Part shown: positions 1,422 to 13,586 of the stretch, in pieces
How the letters are laid out: each line of letters opens with the position of its first letter
How positions within the stretch are numbered: position 1 is the first letter of the stretch
From: a virus
Taxonomy: Duplodnaviria; Heunggongvirae; Uroviricota; Caudoviricetes
Strand: one strand, 5' to 3'
Virus record (IMG/VR): IMGVR_UViG_2609460218_000016
Location: 1-13,586 of that record
DNA length: 13,586 bases
Notes under the pieces: model-generated
The model's database searches: none
What the model saw: the letters and a program-made list of their open reading frames with translations, nothing else
What the model was told of the DNA's origin: nothing
Program-made: the position numbers and the translations under genes

Positions 1422-3893
1422 TTAAAAATCAGCCTGATTCGGGATCAGTTTTTGCCAGATAACTGAAACGTATTTTGCCTGGTAACGGGCGTCATCAAGT
1501 GCATTATGGCGCTCACCTTCGAATGGAATAGCCGTTCTGGCATCGAAGTCTATGGCTTTCCCCAGCTCAACGATTGTGCGTACATCGCGATCGTTGTAGT
1601 AACGCCACGGGCAGGGGATCCCCTGCCGTTCGTATGAACGGCGCAAAATCGTGTTGTCGAAGTTGGCTCCATTTCCCCAAACCTGAACAAAAAATTCACC
1701 GGAGTTTTCGTCGATAAATTCCCGCAATTGTAACAGTGCATCATCTAACGGGATTTCATCGGTCATAATGGCAGATTGCGCTTCGCGTGATTGCTTAAGC
1801 CACCATTTAATGGTGTCCCGATCAATGACTCCGCCAGCAGTTTCCAGATCGATAGTCTTACTAAATTCCGGTCCCATATCTCCGGTTTGCGGATCGAAAA
1901 ATATTGCACCTATTGAGATGATCGGGGCATCAGGATTTTTTCCCATGGTTTCAAGGTCGATCATTAGATGGTCACACGTCCTGCTGGTGGATGTGATTTC
2001 GTGATGACCGTTCACCTTAATTGAGTGATCTGCCGTCTCGCCAGTTTCATTATCGCTATTGTGATGCTGATTGCCGCCAGTGTTCTCCTTGTGTGGATGT
2101 TCAGCGCCTTCCATTTCCTCCAGATCATCTTCCTGAACTTCAACCTGATACTCTTCATCGAATGTTTCCTGGTATGTTGCGTCGCCCATCACCGCGCCAC
2201 AATCAGGGCAGTTGCCGCCGCCGGTCTGACCGCAGGCGGTGCAGACTTTTTCCACTTCCAGTTGCGCCACTGGTTCAGGCTGTTTCGTTTCTGGCTCGTT
2301 TTGTAACGCATTTGTGCTGTTTTGTTCCGCTTTTTGGTAGTTCCGTTCCGATTCATGCTGGTTCTGGTTCACAGAATCGCGGGTCTGGATCCCCTTAACC
2401 CATTTCGGATCATTCGGGTCACTAATCCCTTCAACAAATTCACCACGTGATGCAGCAAGCAACTTATCGGCGTCAGGCTGGCTGATATTGGCTGCCTGCA
2501 TAATTTTGTTTACTTCGTCAGCGGTAACTTTTATCGGCTCTGGTTGTTCTGAATCTTCAGCGGTATCTACATTTTGCGGTAAGCCCGTGTATGTGCCATT
2601 TTTTCGGGCAAAATATTCTTCTTTTGTGATTTCAGTGGCGCCAGCAGCCAGTGCCTTATCCAGACCAGAAAGTTTGTTTGCGCGACCGTATTTTTCTCCG
2701 TCCTTATCTGCGAAGAGGAAATAGAACGGCCCCTCACGCTCTACAGATGGTTCAGCTTCCGGCGCGGTTTCATTTTTTGGGATATCAGATACCTCAGTTT
2801 CCACTGCATCAGTTTGTGTTTCTGATGACTGGAGAACATCAACAGTGCCCAGGTCTGTTTCTTCATTCTCAAACACGCCCTTTGTCGTCAGGTATTCGCA
2901 GATATATTTGTTCAGTGCTATGGGATCTTTGTGAATGTCGATCGGACGCTCACGGACAAGGCCAAAAATAGTCTGGCGGTCGTAGCGAAGGGCATCAGGC
3001 TGTTTGCGCATTGATGCCGAGATACGCTTCCAGTCTTCGCGGTCGTTGTCGATAACTTCTTTTTTTGCCCAGCGATGGATGCTGCCGTCAATGTTTCCGG
3101 CATCCACATCACCAGGCCAGAGAGCGTAGGCCAGTTCGTCATCCAGTGTTTTCCATGTCTGCTTGTATTCGCGATGAATGGCAGCAATGACCGGGCTGAT
3201 TTTTCCTGTTGAATTTTCAGTGTACTGTTGATTGGTTCTGGCGCGGGCGAGATCAACAACAGACGTGTATTTTCCGGTTTCCTTGCGTTCACCTTCGCGA
3301 CGTTTTTTCCAGATGCGCATCTCTGCCTGAATTTCGGGCCATTTAGCACCAGGAATACATTTATGCTTAACCCACCCAATGGCGTGCAACTTAAGCTCCG
3401 GATACATGGCGTTAACTTCTGGCATTTTCATCAACGCTTCAACGATATGTCCGTCGAATGTTGCCATGTCTTCCTGCAACAATTCCTGTGCGCTAATAAC
3501 CATATCAACGGTGATGTTTTCACATGTGTCGAACTTAACCATGACAGCGTTCTGTACTTCAGGGGCCAGCTTGTCAAAAGTGACGTTCATCGGATCGGAT
3601 TCAGTCTCAACCGGGACAAAAGAAGCAGACTCCTCATCCCAGCGGTTTTCCTGCATATATTCAGCATCCCATGAATCGAGGGCAGGGCGGGGTATGCCAG
3701 GTTTATCCTCGCAGACAATAAATTTATAAGCGCAGTCCTGAGCAGCCGGATAATGTTCCAGGAACTGCCAGTGAAATTTTGCTCGAGCACGGCGTTCGTC
3801 GCCAGCTTCAATGGCTGTGGCTACAGCCACAGCGCCTTCTTCCCTTGTTGCCAGTTCGTCAGGAATAGCGGCGCAAATAAAGACTTTACTCAT
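1422..3893 (-). CDS. Prophage exonuclease (exodeoxyribonuclease VIII-like, with C-terminal DnaQ/DEDDh-type 3'-5' exonuclease domain)
   Basis: 823-aa ORF with an SD-like GAGGT upstream of the ATG at 3893. The C-terminal ~190 aa carry DEDDh-like motifs (MIDLETMG, NGANFD, HNALDDARY). A CxxC..CxxC zinc ribbon (CTACGQTGGGNCPDCG) and a long acidic low-complexity linker precede it. It occupies the recombination-gene slot between xis and the immunity region. Confidence 0.8.
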   Translation of the reverse strand: MSKVFICAAIPDELATREEGAVAVATAIEAGDERRARAKFHWQFLEHYPAAQDCAYKFIVCEDKPGIPRPALDSWDAEYMQENRWDEESASFVPVETESDPMNVTFDKLAPEVQNAVMVKFDTCENITVDMVISAQELLQEDMATFDGHIVEALMKMPEVNAMYPELKLHAIGWVKHKCIPGAKWPEIQAEMRIWKKRREGERKETGKYTSVVDLARARTNQQYTENSTGKISPVIAAIHREYKQTWKTLDDELAYALWPGDVDAGNIDGSIHRWAKKEVIDNDREDWKRISASMRKQPDALRYDRQTIFGLVRERPIDIHKDPIALNKYICEYLTTKGVFENEETDLGTVDVLQSSETQTDAVETEVSDIPKNETAPEAEPSVEREGPFYFLFADKDGEKYGRANKLSGLDKALAAGATEITKEEYFARKNGTYTGLPQNVDTAEDSEQPEPIKVTADEVNKIMQAANISQPDADKLLAASRGEFVEGISDPNDPKWVKGIQTRDSVNQNQHESERNYQKAEQNSTNALQNEPETKQPEPVAQLEVEKVCTACGQTGGGNCPDCGAVMGDATYQETFDEEYQVEVQEDDLEEMEGAEHPHKENTGGNQHHNSDNETGETADHSIKVNGHHEITSTSRTCDHLMIDLETMGKNPDAPIISIGAIFFDPQTGDMGPEFSKTIDLETAGGVIDRDTIKWWLKQSREAQSAIMTDEIPLDDALLQLREFIDENSGEFFVQVWGNGANFDNTILRRSYERQGIPCPWRYYNDRDVRTIVELGKAIDFDARTAIPFEGERHNALDDARYQAKYVSVIWQKLIPNQADF

Positions 3894-3986: not shown

Positions 3987-4179
3987 TTAAAGACCTGCCG
4001 GGATTTCGATATTATCCTGGTGAATAACTTTATCGACCGGGTAACAGTTACCGGGAATTTTCTGTTCGGTTGCTGCAGTCATACACTCCTGCATTGTCCT
4101 GTGCACACTGACTGCAATATCAACTGGCTCTCCGGAAACAAGNAAAAACTGTCAGAACAAGCACAAATGCTGAATTCAT
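3987..4179 (-). CDS. Hypothetical small protein, frame interrupted at the ambiguous base 4143
   Basis: ATG at 4179..4177 overlaps the stop of the upstream ORF as ATGA. The frame stops after 19 codons unless the N at 4143 (in a T-run on the coding strand) is skipped, which gives about 63 aa (MNSAFVLVLTVF-LVSGEPVDIAVSVHRTMQECMTAATEQKIPGNCYPVDKVIHQDNIEIPAGL). Hydrophobic N-terminus. Weak call. Confidence 0.25.
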
Positions 4180-4364
4180 TGTGCACATCCTTTTGGCATC
4201 AGACGTAAACGAGCCAGCATTGAAACAATGCATATTTTATTTAATAGCTCCCGTTCTTGTTTTCTCTTGTTAATGGCATCTTCAGTAAATACTGGGTTAC
4301 TGATAGTGACACCAATTTCAAAACAACCTTCAGACGTATTAACGTTTGGTAATAACGTTTTCAT
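4176..4364 (-). CDS. Hypothetical small protein (62 aa; ORF extends to 4469 if the first ATG is used)
   Basis: Internal ATG at 4364 has an SD-like GAGGA 7 nt upstream. Its stop overlaps the next minus-strand ATG (ATGA at 4176-4179), suggesting translational coupling. No recognisable domain. Confidence 0.4.
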   Translation of the reverse strand: MKTLLPNVNTSEGCFEIGVTISNPVFTEDAINKRKQERELLNKICIVSMLARLRLMPKGCAQ

Positions 4365-4923
4365 TATCGCGTCCTCAACAATGAATTTTGTGATGCAGTG
4401 CCTGGTGCCTCCAGGTGACGTTAACCAGTTAACAATTAACGCCGGATACAGAGAATCCACCCATAACACTGTTTTTGGTTTTAACTGTTCCGCGTGCGCT
4501 CAGCCGCATTCACCACATCACAAAATTCACTTTAAAAAGGGCGGCAGAGCAGTCACGGAGTAAAACTGATACCGCCAAACGTCACCAGAAAATTGATAAC
4601 AGAGGGCGTTGCAGCGGGGTTGTCACTTAAGCGTATGGTCAACCTGACAACCCGGTGTCCTCAACGGGGGAAGGAATAACCCCGCCATACTTACCGCCGC
4701 ACCATTTCGCGGATTGCCACAACCGGAAGCGCACGGTCGAACTAAATTTAACGACACCGTACAGAGAGACCAATTTCGCCGTGCGCTTTCGCGTTATGCC
4801 CTGACTTTTCAGGGACATATCCTTTCAGTAAACTGTCAGTGCCGGATGTTCACCCGTGTCCGGCGCACGCACTCCACCTGACCCGTGGAGAACTCCTTAA
4901 TTACCAACCCTCAGGAGGGTGAA

Positions 4924-5202
4924 ATGGATAAAAAGCAAATTGAGGCCCTGCAATCTATTATTGAAAAACAAGATGAAGCTATCAGGATTCTTTCATATCG
5001 CACTGATATGATACTAAATATGCTTTCTGCATTAACGGCTGCGCTTGGTGGTACAAAAACAAACGTATACCGCGAAGTTGTTATTCAACAGATAGATAAA
5101 TTTGAAAAAACCATACCAGGTATTAATGCTCATCTTGCAGAACAAGAGAAAGACCATGCTCTTATGGCAATTTCTTCAGTAGCTCTCCCGAAAGTTGAGT
5201 AG
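4924..5202 (+). CDS. Hypothetical protein (92 aa, predicted helical)
   Basis: Strong SD (AGGAGG) 5 nt upstream of the ATG at 4924; the ORF track starts it at 4885. AT-rich codon usage. Convergent with the 133-aa minus-strand ORF and overlaps it by about 40 nt at the 3' ends. Function unknown. Confidence 0.4.
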   Translation: MDKKQIEALQSIIEKQDEAIRILSYRTDMILNMLSALTAALGGTKTNVYREVVIQQIDKFEKTIPGINAHLAEQEKDHALMAISSVALPKVE

Positions 5203-5563
5203 TTTTAATTGTTGTTTTGAAATAATCACTGCTTTCACATTTGAGTGATTTCATGGCAATCCAAATGCGGGCCTCTGTGCCTGCATTTGGTTCCAGTTGC
5301 TGTAGACGTTTTGCGTCTTCCAAAAGTAAGGCGATAATGTGTTTCAGCTTCTCATCATTTGCTTGATTCTTGTTTTCAGGCGAATTCTGTCCGCCGAATA
5401 GGCGCTTCTCTTCATACAGACCTATAAAGGCACGACGCACGTTACCGGATATAGTATCGATGGTTTCTTTTTCTACGGTACTCAGGTCAAGAGTCGCCAG
5501 TTGAGAGCGAACCACATTCGATGCCATTTCCTGGAATGGTACTGGTAAATCTTTAAATTCCAT
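5162..5563 (-). CDS. Hypothetical protein (about 133 aa)
   Basis: Minus-strand ORF with an SD-like GAGGT 5 nt upstream of the ATG at 5563. An alternative ATG at 5575 overlaps the upstream stop (TGATG). Second gene of the leftward operon after the candidate OL. No domain recognised. Confidence 0.55.
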   Translation of the reverse strand: MEFKDLPVPFQEMASNVVRSQLATLDLSTVEKETIDTISGNVRRAFIGLYEEKRLFGGQNSPENKNQANDEKLKHIIALLLEDAKRLQQLEPNAGTEARIWIAMKSLKCESSDYFKTTIKTTQLSGELLKKLP

Positions 5564-5574
5564 CGTCAACCTCA

Positions 5575-5808
5575 TCAGTCAGTGTTTCTGGTTAACCAGC
5601 GACGCGCGCCAGCTTCAGTTTTAAACGTTTTGCTTCTGGTATACGTCATCGCGGTAAACGTGCCGTCCTGGTTGGGGAATACGCCACATACCAGAGATTC
5701 GTTGTTGCCAAGATTGAGCATATCCATGTTGACCTCATTTCCCCTTAACGCCGGGGTAGCGGAACAAAAACCTGCTGCATAGTTATTAAAGTTGAACCCT
5801 GCCGTCAT
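5575..5808 (-). CDS. Hypothetical small protein, first gene leftward of the immunity region (possible Kil-like position)
   Basis: 77-aa ORF, or about 50 aa from the internal ATG at 5727, which has an SD-like GAGGT. Stop is coupled to the next ORF start. It sits just downstream of the candidate OL operator. The C-terminal motif TEAGARRWL is noted, but any Kil assignment is speculative. Confidence 0.45.
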   Translation of the reverse strand: MTAGFNFNNYAAGFCSATPALRGNEVNMDMLNLGNNESLVCGVFPNQDGTFTAMTYTRSKTFKTEAGARRWLTRNTD

Positions 5809-5910
5809 GTTCTTACGCCTCGGGCTGGCTACTTAACCCCTGACCACTGCCTGGTAACTCGAAGTATTGCCCTGCATTCTGTGGGGCGGGGTGGGTTGGT
5901 ATGTTGTTAA

Positions 5911-5926
5911 GGTAACAAGAGTTACC
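5911..5926. promoter_or_regulatory. Candidate OL operator: palindrome GGTAAC-AAGA-GTTACC
   Basis: Perfect GTAAC-N4-GTTAC inverted repeat, the same core as the two palindromes between the repressor and cro-like genes. A TTGACT hexamer lies just upstream on the minus strand. Located between the repressor terminator and the first leftward gene. Confidence 0.4.
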
Positions 5927-5965
5927 TTTCGAGTCAATACAATGTTGCAAAAGGTACATTTGAGG

Positions 5966-5995
5966 GCATAAAAAACCCGCAATGAATGCGGGTTC
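5966..5995 (-). terminator. Rho-independent terminator downstream of the repressor reading frame
   Basis: On the minus strand: 7-bp GC-rich stem (ACCCGCA / TGCGGGT, 5975-5981 and 5987-5993) with a 5-nt loop, followed by TTTTTTAT. It lies immediately after the stop (6002..6000) of the reconstructed repressor C-terminal frame. Confidence 0.55.
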
Positions 5996-5999
5996 TGAC

Positions 6000-6292
6000 T
6001 CAGTCTAAGTATTGATGTATTTGTGAAACTTTACCTTTAATGGTGTAACCACCATTCAGTTCGATGGGTTTGTAAAGCGGATTCAGTGACAACAGATAGA
6101 TGTTTGGTCCGTCAATCGCAACNTTTTTTTAGTGTTACGTTTGGCGTTCCTTCCAATTGGATTAAGATTATTTTTCCCACCAGTTCTCTAATGTTACTTG
6201 AGCATGGTGTGATCAGCACGGTAGATCCGTCGGGGATGGTTGGGAGGCCGTTAGAGTTTGTCATCGCATCTCCCTCAACATGCAATNAAAAA
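6000..6292 (-). other. Out-of-frame continuation encoding the S24 (LexA/CI-type) peptidase-like C-terminal domain of the repressor
   Basis: Skipping the ambiguous bases at 6287 and 6123 (both beside homopolymer runs) joins the repressor ORF to ..NSF-L-LHVEGDAMTNSNGLPTIPDGSTVLITP..GKIILIQLEGTPNVTLKK-VAIDGPNIYLLSLNPLYKPIELNGGYTIKGKVSQIHQYLD*. This aligns by eye with the lambda CI C-terminal domain (FWLEVEGNSM..FTFKKLIRD..LNPQYPMI..GKVI). Stop at 6002..6000. Confidence 0.6.
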
Positions 6293-6775
6293 AGAGTTTT
6301 CAGCGGTTTTTGTCATGACATCAACCCAATTCTTAATACCAGGAATCTCGGTTACTGGACAACTCATATCCCAATAACCAGCCTGTTCCCACGTTAAAAC
6401 GGGCAACCGGGCGATGTTGTCACTAATGTAAGGGTACTGATTCAGACGCAGATCATCGGCTTTATCGTGACCGTCCTTTCCATAAAGAATCCATTCAGGA
6501 GATTTGGAAAGCAATTTTGACAGTAGATACAAATTCTCACCGTCAGGTTTTGAAGAGCCATTTTCCCATTTTGTTACGGATACACGAGATATGCCGATTG
6601 CTTTCGCAACCTGCTGTTGGGTTAATCCAACGTCTTTTCGACGATTCCGAATACGTTCGCTGATAGTGTTTTTCATGTAACCAATGTTACTACCAAGTGA
6701 TGTTGCTATGGTTGACATTGTTATGTAACTATTGTTACCCTTCTGCTCGAAATAACAGGAGAGTTTTATGTTCAA
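6275..6775 (-). CDS. CI-like phage repressor, N-terminal HTH (XRE-family) portion as assembled
   Basis: Helix-turn-helix motif LTQQQVAKAIGISRVSVTKWENG, divergent from a cro-like gene. The true start is more likely the internal ATG at 6718 or 6676 (MKNTISERIRNRRK..), since a start at 6775 would overlap the cro-like start. The frame ends at 6275 just after ..PVLTWEQAGYWD..ENSF, the beginning of an S24 domain. Confidence 0.8.
   Translation of the reverse strand: MNIKLSCYFEQKGNNSYITMSTIATSLGSNIGYMKNTISERIRNRRKDVGLTQQQVAKAIGISRVSVTKWENGSSKPDGENLYLLSKLLSKSPEWILYGKDGHDKADDLRLNQYPYISDNIARLPVLTWEQAGYWDMSCPVTEIPGIKNWVDVMTKTAENSFXIAC
6677..6738. promoter_or_regulatory. Candidate OR operator pair (GTAAC-N4-GTTAC at 6677-6690 and 6725-6738) with a rightward promoter -35 (TTGACA 6712-6717)
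   Basis: Two perfect 14-bp palindromes, GTAACCAATGTTAC and GTAACTATTGTTAC, lie between the divergent repressor and cro-like genes. A consensus TTGACA sits between them. The -10 element is not clear. Confidence 0.45.
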
Positions 6776-10566: not shown

Positions 10567-11721
10567 ATGGATTATTTATCAGAAGTGTTAAAAATCATTG
10601 AAGGTGCAACAAAGGCAAATGCTTCGATGGCTAGTAATTATGCTGGGTTGCTGGCAGATAAGCTCGAACAAAAAGGGGAGGTCAAGCAAGCCAGAATGAT
10701 AAGAGAAAGGTTGCTTAGAGCTCCCCAGGCGTTGGCAGGAGCTCAAAGGGCTGGAGGTGGGATATCTCTGGGCTCATTACCGGTAGATATTGATAGTCGA
10801 CTCAACACTGTTGATGTCAGTTATCCTAAATTAGACAGTTCAGAGATTTTTCTGCCTGCAGCAATCAGTACCCGTGTTGAAGAGTTTATCACTAATGTTC
10901 AACGTTATGATGAGTTTGTTAAAGCTGATGCAGCATTGCCGAGTCGTATGCTCGTGTATGGAAAGCCAGGAACAGGTAAGACTATGTTATCTAAGTACAT
11001 CGCTACCCGCTTAGATTTTCCACTTCTTACAGTGCGTTGCGATACTTTGATTAGTAGTTTATTGGGACAAACCAGCAAAAATCTTAGACAGGTTTTCGAT
11101 TATGTAATGCAGAGGCCATCAGTGCTTTTTTTAGACGAATTTGATGCTTTAGCTGGAGCAAGAGGTAATGAGAGAGATATAGGTGAGCTTCAGCGAGTTG
11201 TCATTTCACTATTGCAGAATATGGATGCGGCATCAGAGGATACGGTAATTATTGCCTCAACTAACCATGAGCAACTTCTGGATCCTGCAATCTGGAGGCG
11301 ATTTAGCTTCAGAATTCCAATGCCTCTGCCTGACATACATCAGAGAGAGTTAATTTGGAAAAATCGTTTAAAGAATATGATATGTAGCGATCTAGATTTA
11401 AGTGATTTATCAAGAAAATCGGAGGGATTATCCGGAGCAATAATTGAACAGGTGAGCTTGGATGCACGTAGGGATGCAGTTATTGAAGGTGCAAGTGTGA
11501 TAAATCACCATAAATTGTATAGGCGTTTGTATCTTGCGCAATCGCTTATGGAAGGTGTAAATTTAAGCACTTACGAAGATGAAATTCGTTGGTTACGTTC
11601 TAAAGATAAAAAATTATTTTCTATCAGAGTTCTTGCTAATTTGTACAAACTTACATCAAGAGTAATTTCAAACATTCTGAAGGAGTCAGGAGCATATGAG
11701 CAGAAGGGGTACACAGTTTAG
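10567..11721 (+). CDS. AAA+ ATPase (classical AAA clade), putative ATPase subunit of a two-gene defence module (IetA-like architecture)
   Basis: 384-aa ORF with SD GGGAG upstream. Walker A GKPGTGKT, Walker B VLFLDEFD, sensor-1 IIASTN, and the second region of homology / Arg finger DPAIWRRF. The N-terminal ~120 aa have no recognisable domain. The gene is markedly AT-rich compared with the phage backbone. Confidence 0.9.
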   Translation: MDYLSEVLKIIEGATKANASMASNYAGLLADKLEQKGEVKQARMIRERLLRAPQALAGAQRAGGGISLGSLPVDIDSRLNTVDVSYPKLDSSEIFLPAAISTRVEEFITNVQRYDEFVKADAALPSRMLVYGKPGTGKTMLSKYIATRLDFPLLTVRCDTLISSLLGQTSKNLRQVFDYVMQRPSVLFLDEFDALAGARGNERDIGELQRVVISLLQNMDAASEDTVIIASTNHEQLLDPAIWRRFSFRIPMPLPDIHQRELIWKNRLKNMICSDLDLSDLSRKSEGLSGAIIEQVSLDARRDAVIEGASVINHHKLYRRLYLAQSLMEGVNLSTYEDEIRWLRSKDKKLFSIRVLANLYKLTSRVISNILKESGAYEQKGYTV

Positions 11722-13321
11722 TAACGCAAAAGTTACAAACCCAATGTTAAGAATCCCTTTTTCCAGTAGTGACTTGGGTGCAATAGTAAACGCTGGCGGT
11801 GGGGCAAAGGTATTGGTTGATGTAACAGCCGAATATAGACAAGGGCTAGTAAGAAATTTAACAACCAGTAAACATTATTTAGAATCCAAACTTTCAGAGT
11901 ACCCTGGAAGCTTGGGTACTTTGGTTTTCAAATTAAGAGACCAGGGAATAGCCAAAACGCATAGGCCGAACAAAATTGCTCAAGAGGCTGGATTGCAAAA
12001 TGCCGGTCATGCCAAAATAGATGAAATGTTGGTTGCTGCTCATGCCGGCTGTTTTGACGTATTAGAGTCAGTCATTTTACATCGGAATATTAAAGCGATT
12101 TTGGCTAATCTAAGCGCGATTGAGCGCATTGAACCTTGGGATGAGAATAGGAAGGTTCCAGGAGGCACTGATGGTTTGTTTGAATCATCAAACATCCTTG
12201 TACGACTATTTGAGTACACAGGTGAAGATGCAACTTACAACAACTATGAAAACGTTATTTCTATATTAGAACAACACGGAGTTAAATATGATGAGATTAG
12301 ACCAAAATGTGGTCTTCCCTTATTAAGGATAATGGATTTATCCCCAAATGATAGATATATATTAGACATTCTCATTGATTACCCGGGTATAAGAACGTTA
12401 ATTCCAGAACCAAAATATTCAGCATTCCCGGTTAGTGTAAGTGATTCTGTTGGCATTGAAACAAATAGCTTTCCCGTACCATCAGAAGAATTACCCATTG
12501 TTGCTGTATTTGACACTGGGGTAAGCCCCATCGCGGCAACAATTACTCCTTGGGTAGTGAGTAGGGAAACATACGTAATTCCTCCTGATACGAGTTATGA
12601 ACATGGGACTATGGTGTCTTCATTGATATCAGGCGCTCATTTTTTAAATGACAATCATCCATGGATTCCTGATACAAAATCTAAAATCCATGATGTTTGT
12701 GCTTTAGATGAAAATGGATCTTATATATCAGATTTAATTCTGAGGCTAGCAGATGCTGTAAATAAAAGACCAGATATAAAAGTCTGGAATTTATCTTTGG
12801 GAGGCGGACCATGTAATGAGCAGATGTTTAGTGATTTTGCGATGGAGTTAGATCGGCTCAGCGATAAATTTGGTATTTTGTTTGTAGTTGCTGCAGGTAA
12901 TTATGTAGATGAACCTATACGTACATGGCCAAATCCTGATCCGCTTGGAGGTGCTGATTTAATTTCCTCTCCTGGAGAGTCAGTCCGAGCACTAACAGTT
13001 GGTTCAGTTTCTCATATGGAAGCTAATGATGCTTTAAGTGAAATTGGAACACCGACACCATATACTCGTCGTGGCCCTGGGCCTGTATTTACTCCAAAGC
13101 CAGATATAATCCATGCTGGCGGTGGGGTTCATAGACCTTGGAATGTAGGAGCAAGCAGTTTAAAGGTCGTAGGGCCAGATAATAGGCTTTGCTCTAATTT
13201 TGGTACTAGTTTTGCTGCTCCAATTGTGGCAAGTTTAGCTGCGCATACATGGCAGAGAATAGCCACTAATTCAGACTTTAATGTTTCACCGGCTTTGTTG
13301 AATAAATCAGATTTCGGGTAA
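11696..13321 (+). CDS. S8-family subtilisin-like serine peptidase, 3' end interrupted by IS insertion (IetS-like architecture)
   Basis: All four S8 catalytic motifs are present in order: Asp (VAVFDTGVS), His (HGTMVSS), Asn (VWNLSLGG) and Ser (GTSFAAP). The start overlaps the ATPase stop by 26 nt, indicating an operon. The last 10 codons and the stop are encoded by the IS terminal repeat starting at 13291, so the native C-terminus is missing or displaced. An alternative start is the ATG at 11744. Confidence 0.85.
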   Translation: MSRRGTQFSNAKVTNPMLRIPFSSSDLGAIVNAGGGAKVLVDVTAEYRQGLVRNLTTSKHYLESKLSEYPGSLGTLVFKLRDQGIAKTHRPNKIAQEAGLQNAGHAKIDEMLVAAHAGCFDVLESVILHRNIKAILANLSAIERIEPWDENRKVPGGTDGLFESSNILVRLFEYTGEDATYNNYENVISILEQHGVKYDEIRPKCGLPLLRIMDLSPNDRYILDILIDYPGIRTLIPEPKYSAFPVSVSDSVGIETNSFPVPSEELPIVAVFDTGVSPIAATITPWVVSRETYVIPPDTSYEHGTMVSSLISGAHFLNDNHPWIPDTKSKIHDVCALDENGSYISDLILRLADAVNKRPDIKVWNLSLGGGPCNEQMFSDFAMELDRLSDKFGILFVVAAGNYVDEPIRTWPNPDPLGGADLISSPGESVRALTVGSVSHMEANDALSEIGTPTPYTRRGPGPVFTPKPDIIHAGGGVHRPWNVGASSLKVVGPDNRLCSNFGTSFAAPIVASLAAHTWQRIATNSDFNVSPALLNKSDFG

Positions 13322-13586
13322 GTCTCCCCCGTAGCGGGTTGTGTTTTCAGGCAATACGCACGCTTTCAGGCATACCTGCTTTCGTCATTTTGTTCAGCGC
13401 TCGTACCAGGGCCATAGCCTCCGCAACCTGACCATCGTAGTCACGCAGCGTCAGTGAACCCCCGAACAGCTGTTTTACCCGGTACATCGCCGTTTCCGCT
13501 ATCGAGCGACGGTTGTAATCTGTTGTCCATTTCCACCGCGCATTACTCCCGGTCATTCGCTGATTAGCCACTGCACGGTTACGGTC
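13291..13586 (-). mobile_element. IS903-group (IS5 family) insertion sequence, partial, running off the window end
   Basis: The terminal sequence GGCTTTGTTGAATAAATC at 13291-13308 matches the IS903/IS102 inverted repeat as I recall it. The adjacent minus-strand ORF ends ..MTKAGMPESVRIA, which I recognise as the IS903 transposase C-terminus. Confidence 0.8.
13347..13586 (-). CDS. IS903-family transposase, C-terminal fragment (gene continues beyond the window)
   Basis: Minus-strand ORF open to the window edge. Translation ..RRSIAETAMYRVKQLFGGSLTLRDYDGQVAEAMALVRALNKMTKAGMPESVRIA*. Confidence 0.75.
   Translation of the reverse strand, partial: DRNRAVANQRMTGSNARWKWTTDYNRRSIAETAMYRVKQLFGGSLTLRDYDGQVAEAMALVRALNKMTKAGMPESVRIA

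What the first reader, a model, noticed from the sequence alone, without database searches (positions are those of the whole stretch)
4885..5808. AT-rich cluster of three uncharacterised small genes at the head of the leftward early operon, including a convergent overlapping pair
A 77-aa and a ~133-aa ORF on the minus strand are translationally coupled (overlapping stop/start at 5575) and lie directly downstream of the candidate OL. In lambdoid phages this slot holds host-takeover genes (N, kil, and similar). A 92-aa plus-strand ORF with a strong SD converges on the 133-aa gene and overlaps its 3' end by about 40 nt, which allows antisense interference. None of the three has a domain I can assign; a link between the 77-aa C-terminus and Kil-like division inhibitors is a guess.
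Basis: inference. Interest (0 to 1): 0.5.

Follow-up and report, generated by a model that had tools for sequence, protein, structure and literature searches.

The report
Antisense small-gene cassette in dicBF operon
The three small ORFs are not one unit: two are early genes of a prophage "dicBF" operon (one is the known YdfA family), and the third is a self-contained gene cassette facing the other way, whose conserved promoter and folded RNA leader carry at least a dozen unrelated small genes in other prophages.

Summary
The ORFs exist, but they need re-drawing and they are not a three-gene unit. The window is a PPompW/Qin-type lambdoid prophage. The finding sits between the OL operator and DicF/dicB, at the head of a dicBF-type early-left operon.

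- **77-aa ORF:** this is YdfA (Pfam DUF1391). Its real start is almost certainly Met28, giving 50 aa (5575-5727).
- **133-aa gene (5162-5563):** a mosaic protein. Its N-terminal helical hairpin is shared by about 800 E. coli genomes. Its C-terminal part is swappable and is a free-standing 71-aa protein in Salmonella.
- **92-aa plus-strand gene B (4924-5202):** a real gene (dN/dS 0.08-0.25). It is a soluble three-helix protein from a tiny family restricted to enterobacterial prophages.
- **What precedes B:** a conserved -10 box, two hairpins supported by covariation, and an SD/ATG at a fixed offset.

The same leader carries at least 12 unrelated small ORFs in Qin-like, Rac-like and P2-like prophages, and it always faces the early lytic promoter. 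This matches the topology of lambda sieB, although B is not a SieB homologue.

No function could be assigned to any of the three proteins, and expression was not shown. I rate this a new variant of a known kind (a moron embedded antisense in an early operon), of moderate interest.

The parts
4806..4834 (+). Putative sigma-70 promoter of the cassette (P_B): -35 TTTTCA 4806-4811, 17-nt spacer, -10 TAAACT 4829-4834. The predicted start is about 4840-4842.
   Evidence: A TAnnnT hexamer (TAAACT, TAAGCT, TAAAAT, TATTTT, TATTAT, TAACAT) is kept in most loci whose upstream flanks are otherwise unrelated (a minority show only weaker A/T-rich candidates), 3-6 nt (mostly 5) before T/GCCGG. P2-like loci have extended -10 boxes TGnTAT... 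4-7 nt before it. It matches only 8/12 of the consensus, so the promoter scan did not call it. There is no transcript evidence.
4841..4923 (+). Conserved structured leader. H1 is 4841-4864 (GCCGGA-N12-TCCGGC). H2 is 4872-4877 paired with 4885-4890 (CTCCAC/GTGGAG). A possible anti-SD CTCCT 4893-4897 pairs with AGGAG 4913-4917. The SD is AGGAGG 4913-4918.
   Evidence: Covariance-model alignment of 40 distinct leaders: 92.6% of cells paired against 41-46% when the partners are slid; 7 pairs changed on both sides; covariation score 0.176 against 0.053 in shuffles, 0/500 shuffles reaching it. H2 has at least 5 sequence types that all fold. H1 is nearly invariant even where B has fallen to 45% identity. 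H3 is thermodynamically weak.
4924..5202 (+). Gene B, 92 aa: the cargo of the cassette, a soluble acidic three-helix protein of unknown function.
   Evidence: phrog_18692 over its full length, function unknown. No Pfam, PADLOC or NCBIfam assignment. dN/dS 0.08-0.25 against Salmonella homologues. The family has 40 hits among 5.8 billion clusters and 21 representatives among 1.84 billion. AF2 gives helices 3-42, 46-63 and 69-86 at pLDDT 67. No transmembrane segment; pI 5.7.
5162..5563 (-). Gene A, 133 aa: the second gene of the early-left operon. It is a mosaic of an N-domain (residues 1-~55, 5399-5563), a linker, and a C-domain (residues 69-133, 5162-5359). Its last 13 codons are the antisense of B's 3' end.
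   Evidence: phrog_1363 over the whole protein, while the N and C halves hit different PHROGs. The N-terminal 160 nt alone is found in about 800 E. coli genomes with other C-termini. The C-domain is a free-standing 71-aa protein in Salmonella. AF2 gives an N-terminal helical hairpin at pLDDT about 75; the rest is low confidence. The N-domain resembles a 52-aa phi191 protein.
5564..5577 (-). Conserved inter-module junction TGATGAGGTTGACG. It holds the ydfA stop TGA (5575-5577) and the SD GAGG (5570-5573) for A's ATG at 5563.
   Evidence: Read directly from the sequence. The same junction, translated as 'MRLTM', precedes unrelated downstream genes in many loci.
5575..5727 (-). ydfA, DUF1391, 50 aa: the first gene of the operon.
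   Evidence: Pfam DUF1391 at 4.7e-28, covering residues 30-75 of the 77-aa ORF. RefSeq aa. The upstream extension is not conserved as protein. K-12 homology spans 5596-5765.
5909..5937 (-). Early-left promoter and operator: -35 TTGACT 5932-5937, operator palindrome GGTAACTCTTGTTACC 5911-5926, -10-like TACCTT 5909-5914.
   Evidence: Sequence. A second operator copy lies at 6724-6739 between the repressor and cro, with 0.1 expected by chance. The position matches dicBp, downstream of dicA in K-12 (PMC10448788).
4539..4590 (-). DicF sRNA, downstream in the same operon. It gives the context and is one of the real division inhibitors.
   Evidence: Rfam RF00039 at 76.7 bits against a gathering score of 48.
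4176..4364 (-). dicB, 62 aa, a cell-division inhibitor downstream in the same operon.
   Evidence: Pfam DicB at 9.6e-40. RefSeq annotation of the 99.8% identical ETEC6 locus.

Best explanation
The region is the promoter-proximal, mosaic accessory segment of a dicBF-type early-left operon in a PPompW/Qin-like lambdoid prophage.

**Minus strand.** The operator-controlled promoter near 5909-5937 drives this order of genes: ydfA (50 aa), then gene A (133 aa), then a long untranslated stretch, then DicF, dicB, a DUF1482 gene and the exonuclease.

**Plus strand.** Embedded antisense in that operon is an autonomous, horizontally exchangeable cassette. It consists of a weak sigma-70 promoter (-10 TAAACT at 4829-4834), an 83-nt leader that starts with a nearly invariant hairpin and a second covarying hairpin, an SD, and the cargo gene B.

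**Shown here.** B is a real protein-coding gene. The leader structure is conserved and covaries. Homology between leaders that carry unrelated cargos stops at the start codon. The module occurs in three prophage backbones and always faces the early lytic promoter.

**Inferred mechanism.**
- In the repressed prophage the early-left promoter is silent and P_B transcribes B. B is therefore a lysogeny-phase accessory protein, like lambda sieB.
- On derepression, convergent transcription and full sense-antisense pairing with the early-left transcript shut B off.
- In the other direction, P_B transcription opposes leak-through into the toxic dicF/dicB genes.
- The 5'-terminal hairpins most plausibly stabilise or regulate the mRNA.

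**Biochemical roles.** B's own role is unknown. My best guess is that this small soluble helical protein acts by binding a host or phage protein, for exclusion or host modulation. ydfA and A are early-operon proteins of unknown function.
For: **Context.**
- The locus is 99.8% identical to an ETEC6 prophage next to ompW, annotated int-xis-exonuclease-DUF1482-dicB ... DUF1391-LexA-family repressor-cro-YdaT.
- DicF and DicB are confirmed, and the operator pair is found.

**Cassette boundaries.**
- Against K-12 Qin the differing stretch is 4910-5595.
- In strain DLI.5a the same A/B pair lies between ydfC and dicF.

**B is coding.**
- dN/dS is 0.08-0.25.
- Homologues at 72-74% and 44-47% identity keep the same length.

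**Autonomy of the cassette.**
- B sits with three different convergent partners: A; a 71-aa protein equal to A's C-domain; and a 171-214 aa HTH protein in P2-like prophages.
- Gene A at about 88% protein identity (91% DNA) sits with a different cargo.

**Slot diversity.**
- At least 12 unrelated ORF families of 30-104 aa start 82-93 nt after the beginning of the leader.

**Promoter.**
- The -10 element is conserved in otherwise unrelated upstream flanks.

**Leader structure.**

**Precedent.**
- Lambda sieB (34482-35036, + strand) abuts N (35037-35438, - strand) convergently inside the pL operon.
Against: - There is no direct evidence of plus-strand transcription or of B protein.
- P_B matches only 8/12 of the consensus and the promoter scan did not call it.
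- The published work on dicBF found no extra promoter, but it examined only the operon strand (PMC10448788).
- Hairpin energies are equal on both strands, and wobble variants split 5 against 3.
- The leader survives in truncated form, without any cargo, in about half of the loci, including K-12 Qin.
- The leader travels together with the DicF-precursor block. It may therefore serve the minus-strand RNA as well, or instead.
- The SD-occluding helix is weak.
- No homology, fold match or defence-system model gives B a function.
- The models have only moderate confidence.
Confidence: 0.55

Rival explanations
1. A and B form a cognate functional pair, such as toxin/antidote or effector/immunity, or a pair regulated mutually through their overlapping 3' ends. 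Their convergent 41-nt overlap would be the functional core.
For: - The 41-nt overlap recurs in E. coli, in Salmonella Rac-like prophages and in Salmonella P2-like prophages.
- Most cargo genes abut or overlap the convergent gene.
- The C-terminal part of A tends to change together with the cargo type.
Against: - B's convergent partners are three different proteins. They share only the last ~13 codons, which are simply the antisense of B's own 3' end.
- Gene A at about 88% protein identity (91% DNA) pairs with an unrelated, non-overlapping 57-aa cargo.
- A's C-domain also neighbours the 74-aa and 94-aa cargos.
- There are no toxin-antitoxin or PADLOC hits.
- Linkage of adjacent mosaic segments explains the co-variation.
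Confidence: 0.12
2. One reading: a pL-proximal host-takeover cluster (N/Kil-like), with the plus-strand ORF as an antisense modulator.
For: - ydfA and A are the first genes after the operator-controlled early-left promoter.
- The operon as a whole is a known host-takeover unit, acting through DicF and DicB (PMC5069750, PMC6832061).
Against: - No N, Kil or other takeover homology was found in any of the three ORFs.
- The division inhibitors are identified elsewhere in the operon.
- ydfA belongs to DUF1391, which has no known phenotype. In the UTI89 filamentation screen the Qin hit is attributed to dicB/dicF (PMC6206680).
- B has its own expression signals and moves independently.
Confidence: 0.15
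3. The conserved hairpin block 4841-4923 is primarily an element of the minus-strand early-left transcript: part of the long untranslated DicF precursor, serving processing, stability or protection from Rho. The plus-strand ORFs would be opportunistic passengers with little or no independent expression.
For: - The block is retained, truncated just before the SD, in K-12 Qin and many other loci without cargo.
- It is contiguous with the RNase III hairpin (4726-4736 with 4780-4791) and with DicF. It moves with that block into Rac-like and P2-like prophages that carry DicF-like or other sRNAs at the same position.
- The hairpins fold equally well on the minus strand.
Against: - A minus-strand role does not explain the SD plus start codon at a fixed offset in at least 12 unrelated cargo families.
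- It does not explain why homology ends exactly at the ATG.
- It does not explain the position-specific TAnnnT/TGnTAT box in most of the unrelated flanks.
- It does not explain purifying selection on B.
- The two roles are not exclusive.
Confidence: 0.18

Closest known systems
dicBF operon of the E. coli K-12 Qin cryptic prophage (ydfA-ydfB-ydfC-dicF-dicB-ydfD)
   Same: - The backbone and gene order are the same: a repressor with its operator, ydfA first, a long untranslated region with DicF, then dicB and a DUF1482/ydfD-like gene.
- DNA identity is 96% over 4100-4909 and 88% over ydfA.
   Different: - ydfB and ydfC are absent here, and 4910-5595 is replaced by gene A plus the antisense cassette B.
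- The repressor is a LexA/CI-family protein rather than DicA.
- K-12 keeps the cassette promoter and hairpins H1/H2 but lacks the SD and cargo.
Lambda sieB, and moron elements in general (promoter plus gene inserted into a phage operon; the moron concept is from my own knowledge)
   Same: - It is a gene in opposite orientation inside the early-left operon, near the immunity region, convergent with and abutting an early gene. Lambda sieB 34482-35036(+) abuts N 35037-35438(-).
- It is expected to be expressed when pL is repressed.
   Different: - There is no sequence or fold relationship to SieB.
- B is 92 aa, soluble, and has no transmembrane segment.
- Lambda's sieB upstream region lacks the leader.
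- Here the expression platform is conserved while the cargo is hypervariable.
Cis-antisense countertranscripts in temperate phages (lambda OOP against cII, P22 sar against ant; from my own knowledge)
   Same: A convergent promoter inside an early operon whose RNA is fully complementary to the early transcript. This allows RNase III-dependent or collision-based interference.
   Different: Here the countertranscript is an mRNA for a conserved protein. No processing data exist for it.
PHROG families phrog_18692 (B), phrog_1363 (A), phrog_751 (YdfA long form)
   Same: Full-length matches at E-values of 6e-63, 1e-44 and 1e-43.
   Different: All are annotated 'unknown function'. phrog_751 includes the probably untranslated N-terminal extension.

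Membership tests
YdfA / DUF1391 (Pfam PF07151) | Sequence match above the Pfam gathering score | tested here: met
   97 bits against a cut-off of 27.3, E 4.7e-28, covering residues 30-75 of the 77-aa ORF
YdfA / DUF1391 (Pfam PF07151) | About 50-aa protein encoded as the first gene after the repressor-controlled dicB-type promoter | tested here: met
   Position is directly downstream of the operator and promoter. Comparative analysis puts the start at Met28, giving 50 aa. K-12 ydfA is 51 aa in the same position.
dicBF-type early-left operon | DicF sRNA and dicB downstream on the same strand | tested here: met
   Rfam DicF at 76.7 bits, 4539-4590(-). Pfam DicB at 1e-39, 4176-4364(-).
dicBF-type early-left operon | ydfB and ydfC between ydfA and dicF | tested here: not met
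   Replaced by gene A and cassette B. Only 32 nt separate the ydfA and A homology blocks, where strain DLI.5a has ydfB-ydfC.
SieB superinfection-exclusion family (lambda/P22) | Sequence homology to SieB | tested here: not met
   B has no Pfam, PHROG-annotated or NCBIfam SieB hit
SieB superinfection-exclusion family (lambda/P22) | Membrane protein of about 190 aa | tested here: not met
   92 aa; maximum 19-residue Kyte-Doolittle hydropathy 0.93; GRAVY -0.10
SieB superinfection-exclusion family (lambda/P22) | Opposite orientation inside the pL operon, convergent with an early gene | tested here: met
   Same topology as lambda sieB/N. This is a resemblance of layout only.
SieB superinfection-exclusion family (lambda/P22) | Excludes or aborts superinfecting phage | not testable with these tools
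   Needs plating assays
Lambda Kil / N-type early takeover proteins | Sequence homology to Kil or N | tested here: not met
   No hits for any of the three proteins
Type I toxin-antitoxin | Small hydrophobic toxin (under 60 aa) with an antisense RNA antitoxin | tested here: not met
   B is 92 aa and hydrophilic. A structured leader and an antisense transcript exist, but the product is not toxin-like.
Type II toxin-antitoxin | Co-directional two-gene operon with recognisable toxin or antitoxin folds | tested here: not met
   The genes are convergent. The only hint is a sub-threshold RelB-like hit (15.9 bits against a cut-off of 50). B is found with three different partners.
Known anti-phage defence systems (PADLOC) | Match to any defence-system protein model | tested here: not met
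   No significant hits for B, A, YdfA or ten alternative cargos
Moron (autonomous promoter-gene unit in a phage operon) | Own promoter | tested here: inconclusive
   A conserved -10 or extended -10 is kept in most of the unrelated flanks. It is weak by consensus and no transcript data exist.
Moron (autonomous promoter-gene unit in a phage operon) | Present or absent between otherwise collinear phage genomes, with atypical composition | tested here: met
   Absent from K-12 Qin, and present in 124 of 5426 E. coli genomes. GC is 0.37 against 0.46 for the window.
Moron (autonomous promoter-gene unit in a phage operon) | Own terminator | tested here: not met
   No intrinsic terminator was found in 4400-6200 on either strand

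The most novel reading that the evidence does not exclude
The promoter plus H1/H2 leader is a dedicated, portable expression and regulation platform. It defines an integron-like slot for small lysogeny-phase effector genes, and it always points against the early lytic promoter, in lambdoid (Qin-like, Rac-like, Stx) and P2-like prophages of Enterobacteriaceae. H1 is more conserved than any cargo, so it would be recognised sequence-specifically by a conserved host or phage factor, as RNA or as a 6-12-6 DNA operator at the transcription start. The dozen or more cargo families, B included, would be an unexplored pool of small exclusion, anti-defence or host-modulating proteins whose expression is switched by the lysis-lysogeny decision through convergent transcription.
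Probability: 0.3. Interest if true: 0.7.

Novelty: new variant of a known kind. Interest (0 to 1): 0.5.

Why it matters
If the cassette is expressed as inferred, many E. coli, Shigella and Salmonella prophages, including Stx-phage relatives and the much-studied dicBF locus, carry an undescribed antisense transcription unit.

- Its conserved regulatory leader would deliver interchangeable small proteins during lysogeny.
- That would add a layer to the control of the toxic dicF/dicB genes.
- It would also give a sequence handle (the leader) for mining small prophage accessory proteins that gene callers and defence-system finders miss.
- For annotation, it corrects the start sites of three genes and shows that the 'ydfABC' segment of dicBF operons is a recombination hot spot.

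Tried and rejected
**Function by homology.**
- Pfam, PHROGs, PADLOC and NCBIfam scans of B, A and YdfA and of ten alternative cargos gave only DUF1391, function-unknown PHROGs and one borderline GhoS hit for a 94-aa cargo.
- PDB sequence searches with profiles found nothing.
- Two word-indexed protein searches, one profile search and one exhaustive HMM search found only 'hypothetical' enterobacterial prophage proteins.

**Function by fold.**
- The AF2 models were moderate to poor (pLDDT 67 and 58).
- Foldseek against the PDB and BFVD gave no significant match, apart from A's N-domain matching an uncharacterised 52-aa phi191 protein.

**Strand of the hairpins.**
- G:U wobbles and folding energies were inconclusive.

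**SD occlusion.**
- Computed accessibility shows the helix is weak, so I do not rely on it.

**Experimental start sites.**
- The supplements of two E. coli transcriptome papers had nothing on the antisense strand of ydfC-dicF.
- A full-text search for the leader sequence found no paper.

**Ideas rejected.**
- A-B cognate pair, because B has three different partners.
- SieB membership.
- An RNase III link between the cassette RNA and the 190-nt DicF 5' end. That site maps to about 4726, outside the predicted plus-strand transcript (plus the coordinate mapping).
- Rfam: no known family covers the leader.
- The promoter/terminator scan called neither P_B nor any terminator.
Full report
**Context.** The window is a lambdoid prophage integrated next to ompW.
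- Region 4400-6300 is 99.8% identical to E. coli ETEC6. RefSeq annotates that locus, in order, as integrase, excisionase, exonuclease, DUF1482, dicB, two hypothetical proteins, DUF1391, a LexA-family repressor, Cro and YdaT.
- In the window, DicF is at 4539-4590(-) (Rfam 76.7 bits) and DicB at 4176-4364(-) (Pfam 1e-39).
- A rho-independent terminator follows the repressor gene at 5968-5996.
- A promoter-like TTGACT (5932-5937) comes next, overlapping a perfect palindrome GGTAACTCTTGTTACC at 5911-5926.
- A 2-mismatch copy of that palindrome lies at 6724-6739 between the repressor and cro, against 0.1 matches expected by chance.
- The finding therefore lies at the head of the repressor-controlled early-left operon. 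This operon is the equivalent of the dicBF operon of the K-12 Qin prophage (PMC5069750; PMC10448788).

**Checking the observation.**
- The three ORFs are present.
- The plus-strand ORF is best read from ATG 4924, giving 92 aa, with AGGAGG 5 nt upstream. The GTG at 4885 lies inside a conserved hairpin.
- The 133-aa and 137-aa readings differ by 'MRLT'. The sequence TGATGAGGTTGACGATG is a junction that recurs in front of unrelated genes. Its GAGG serves the second ATG, so 133 aa (5162-5563) is preferred, as RefSeq also calls it.
- The 77-aa ORF is YdfA (DUF1391, 97 bits). Across 22 variants, the frame upstream of the conserved core often has no ATG or is frameshifted.
- The real ydfA start is therefore ATG 5727, with GAGG 5 nt upstream, giving 50 aa.
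- GC content is 0.37 for B, 0.42 for A, 0.49 for ydfA and 0.46 for the whole window.

**Mosaic structure.**
- Against K-12 Qin, homology runs over 4100-4909 (96%) and 5596-5765 (88%). The stretch 4910-5595 is different.
- Strain DLI.5a has ydfA-ydfB-ydfC followed by the same A/B pair. The pair is therefore a segment that can be added between ydfC and the DicF leader.
- The whole segment occurs in 124 of 5426 complete E. coli genomes. The first 160 nt of gene A occur in about 800 more genomes, fused to other C-terminal sequences.
- A's N and C halves hit different PHROGs.
- In Salmonella Rac-like prophages, A's C-domain is a free-standing 71-aa protein.

**Gene B is real and narrowly distributed.**
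- Homologues at 72-74% identity (Salmonella, Rac-like prophages) give dN/dS of 0.17-0.25 against the window copy and 0.08 among themselves.
- A profile search added a 91-aa subfamily (28% identity, pairwise E 9e-6) and 92-aa Salmonella proteins at 44-47% identity.
- An exhaustive HMM search of 1.84 billion representatives found only 21 proteins.
- None of these proteins has a name, domain, defence-system hit or solved relative.
- AlphaFold2 gives three helices at pLDDT 67, and Foldseek finds nothing significant.
- B has no transmembrane segment and a pI of 5.7.

**The conserved leader and the cargo slot.**
- Every B homologue is preceded by TGCCGGATnnTnAnCCGTGTCCGGCGCACG.
- Scanning public collections for this pattern fetched about 130 prophage loci from E. 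coli, Shigella, E. albertii, Edwardsiella and Pluralibacter.
- About half of them carry an SD and a start codon 82-93 nt after the start of the leader. These begin at least 12 unrelated ORF families of 30-104 aa.
- Homology between leaders with different cargos ends at the ATG.
- The other loci, including K-12 Qin, have the leader truncated just before the SD or within H2, and carry no cargo.
- All ten alternative cargos that were scanned have unknown function, apart from a borderline GhoS-like hit for one of them.

**Structure and promoter of the leader.**
- The leader folds into H1 (GCCGGA-N12-TCCGGC), H2, and a weaker helix pairing CTCC(T/A) with the SD.
- H2 exists in at least five sequence types that all form a hairpin: CTCCAC/GTGGAG, GACCACACG/CGTGTTGGTC, CCCGAC/GTCGGG, CCCAAC/GTTGGG and AACTCCAT/ATGGAGGTT.
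- I aligned 40 distinct leaders to a covariance model. 92.6% of cells pair, against 41-46% when the partners are slid.
- Seven pairs change on both sides, and the covariation score is 0.176 against 0.053 in shuffles, with 0 of 500 shuffles reaching it. The alignment is fitted to the model, so these figures lean towards the structure.
- In most loci whose upstream flanks are otherwise unrelated, a TAnnnT hexamer lies 3-6 nt (mostly 5) upstream of H1. A few flank classes show only weaker A/T-rich candidates. P2-like loci have TGnTAT... extended -10 boxes instead.
- In the window this hexamer is TAAACT (4829-4834), with TTTTCA 17 nt upstream. That is only 8/12 of the consensus, so the scan tool did not list it.

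**Autonomy of the cassette.**
- B with its leader occurs in three prophage backbones.
  - Qin-like (this window).
  - Rac-like, with RecT/RecE/YdaE (L007-L009).
  - P2/186-like, ordered int, C repressor, Cox, a 171-214 aa HTH gene, then B (L143-L146).
- In all three, B converges on the second or third gene of the early lytic operon and overlaps it by 41 nt.
- The partner proteins share only their last ~13 residues, which are the antisense reading of B's 3' end.
- Gene A at about 88% protein identity (91% DNA) occurs with a different, non-overlapping 57-aa cargo.
- This argues against a cognate A-B pair. It favours a self-contained module whose constant feature is its orientation against the early promoter.

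**Precedent and mechanism.**
- Lambda sieB (34482-35036, +) lies convergent with and abutting N (35037-35438, -) inside the pL operon. B is not a SieB homologue and is not a membrane protein.
- I therefore propose that B is a lysogeny-phase accessory gene transcribed from its own promoter.
- It would be silenced by convergent early-left transcription and sense-antisense pairing on derepression. Its transcription could also damp leak-through into dicF/dicB.
- These steps are inferred. Only the sequence architecture, the conservation, the covariation and the purifying selection are shown.

**Caveats and rivals.**
- Hairpin energies and wobble pairs do not decide the strand.
- The leader persists without cargo.
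- The leader also travels with the DicF-precursor block, including the RNase III hairpin at 4726-4736/4780-4791 described for K-12 (PMC10448788). A role in the minus-strand RNA is therefore a live alternative, and it is not exclusive of a plus-strand role.
- That alternative does not explain the fixed SD/ATG, the -10 box or the selection on B.
- The SD-occluding helix is weak.
- I found no published transcription start data or description of this element.

**Verdict.**
The operon position and the antisense potential are right. The N/Kil-like three-gene cluster is not.
- YdfA is already known as a family of unknown function.
- Gene A is a mosaic early protein of unknown function.
- B and its promoter-leader platform are, as far as I could find, undescribed. 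I rate them a new variant of the sieB/moron theme, with interest 0.5.

Noticed in passing
window 10567-13321 (+) and 13347-13571 (-): An IetA/IetS anti-phage defence pair. IetA is 384 aa (PADLOC 9e-143). IetS (PADLOC 3e-194) stops at 541 aa of a 749-position profile. A DDE transposase fragment lies just beyond it, so IetS looks truncated by an IS.
   Followed up: partly
window 4143, 6123, 6287, 7870, 8807, 10368: Six single ambiguous bases (N). Those at 6123 and 6287 split the LexA-family repressor gene (about 6000-6718, -) into separate ORFs in the mechanical ORF list. The gene is intact in the 99.8% identical ETEC6 locus.
   Followed up: yes
window 4722-4738 with 4779-4795: A long-range hairpin (GGAAGCGCAC / GTGCGCTTTC) at the position where K-12 work maps the RNase III cut that makes the 190-nt DicF species. 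Salmonella L007 has a compensatory A:T to G:C change in it.
   Followed up: partly
L008 4734-4782 (-); L143 about 3610-3670: Salmonella prophages carrying the cassette have, at the DicF position, either a sub-threshold DicF-like RNA (36 bits) or a different terminator-hairpin RNA. These may be DicF-position sRNA variants with other seed sequences.
   Followed up: no
L094 and L061 (cargo ORF after the leader): One alternative cargo (94 aa, MAKFTVRIELRD...) scores at the Pfam gathering threshold for GhoS, the endoribonuclease antitoxin of the type V GhoT/GhoS system (21.2 bits against 21).
   Followed up: no
window 5399-5563 (- strand, A residues 1-~55); phage phi191 protein A0A096XEQ2: A's N-terminal helical hairpin also exists as a free-standing 52-aa protein in Stx phage phi191 (TM 0.85, 36% identity). 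It heads 116-216 aa proteins with many different C-termini.
   Followed up: partly
window 4841-4864 and all related loci: Hairpin H1 is more conserved than any cargo coding sequence. It shows one substitution or a 1-nt deletion where B has diverged to 45% identity. As DNA it is a 6-12-6 palindrome sitting on the predicted transcription start. The reason for this conservation is unexplained.
   Followed up: partly
L143 3026-3113 and 3224-3317; L145 2874-3156: C4 antisense RNA (77 bits), with its a1/b1 target and isrK-like hits, lies next to Phage_ASH/Derepression genes in the P2-like Salmonella prophages that carry a B homologue.
   Followed up: no
L010 2247-2336 (-): An sRNA-Xcc1 match (67 bits) in a Salmonella prophage whose B copy is C-terminally replaced and lacks a convergent partner.
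   Followed up: no
L015 (Chryseobacterium sp. assembly) and L020 (Collinsella MAG): The enterobacterial prophage leader turns up in assemblies labelled as non-enterobacterial organisms. These are probably contaminating contigs.
   Followed up: no
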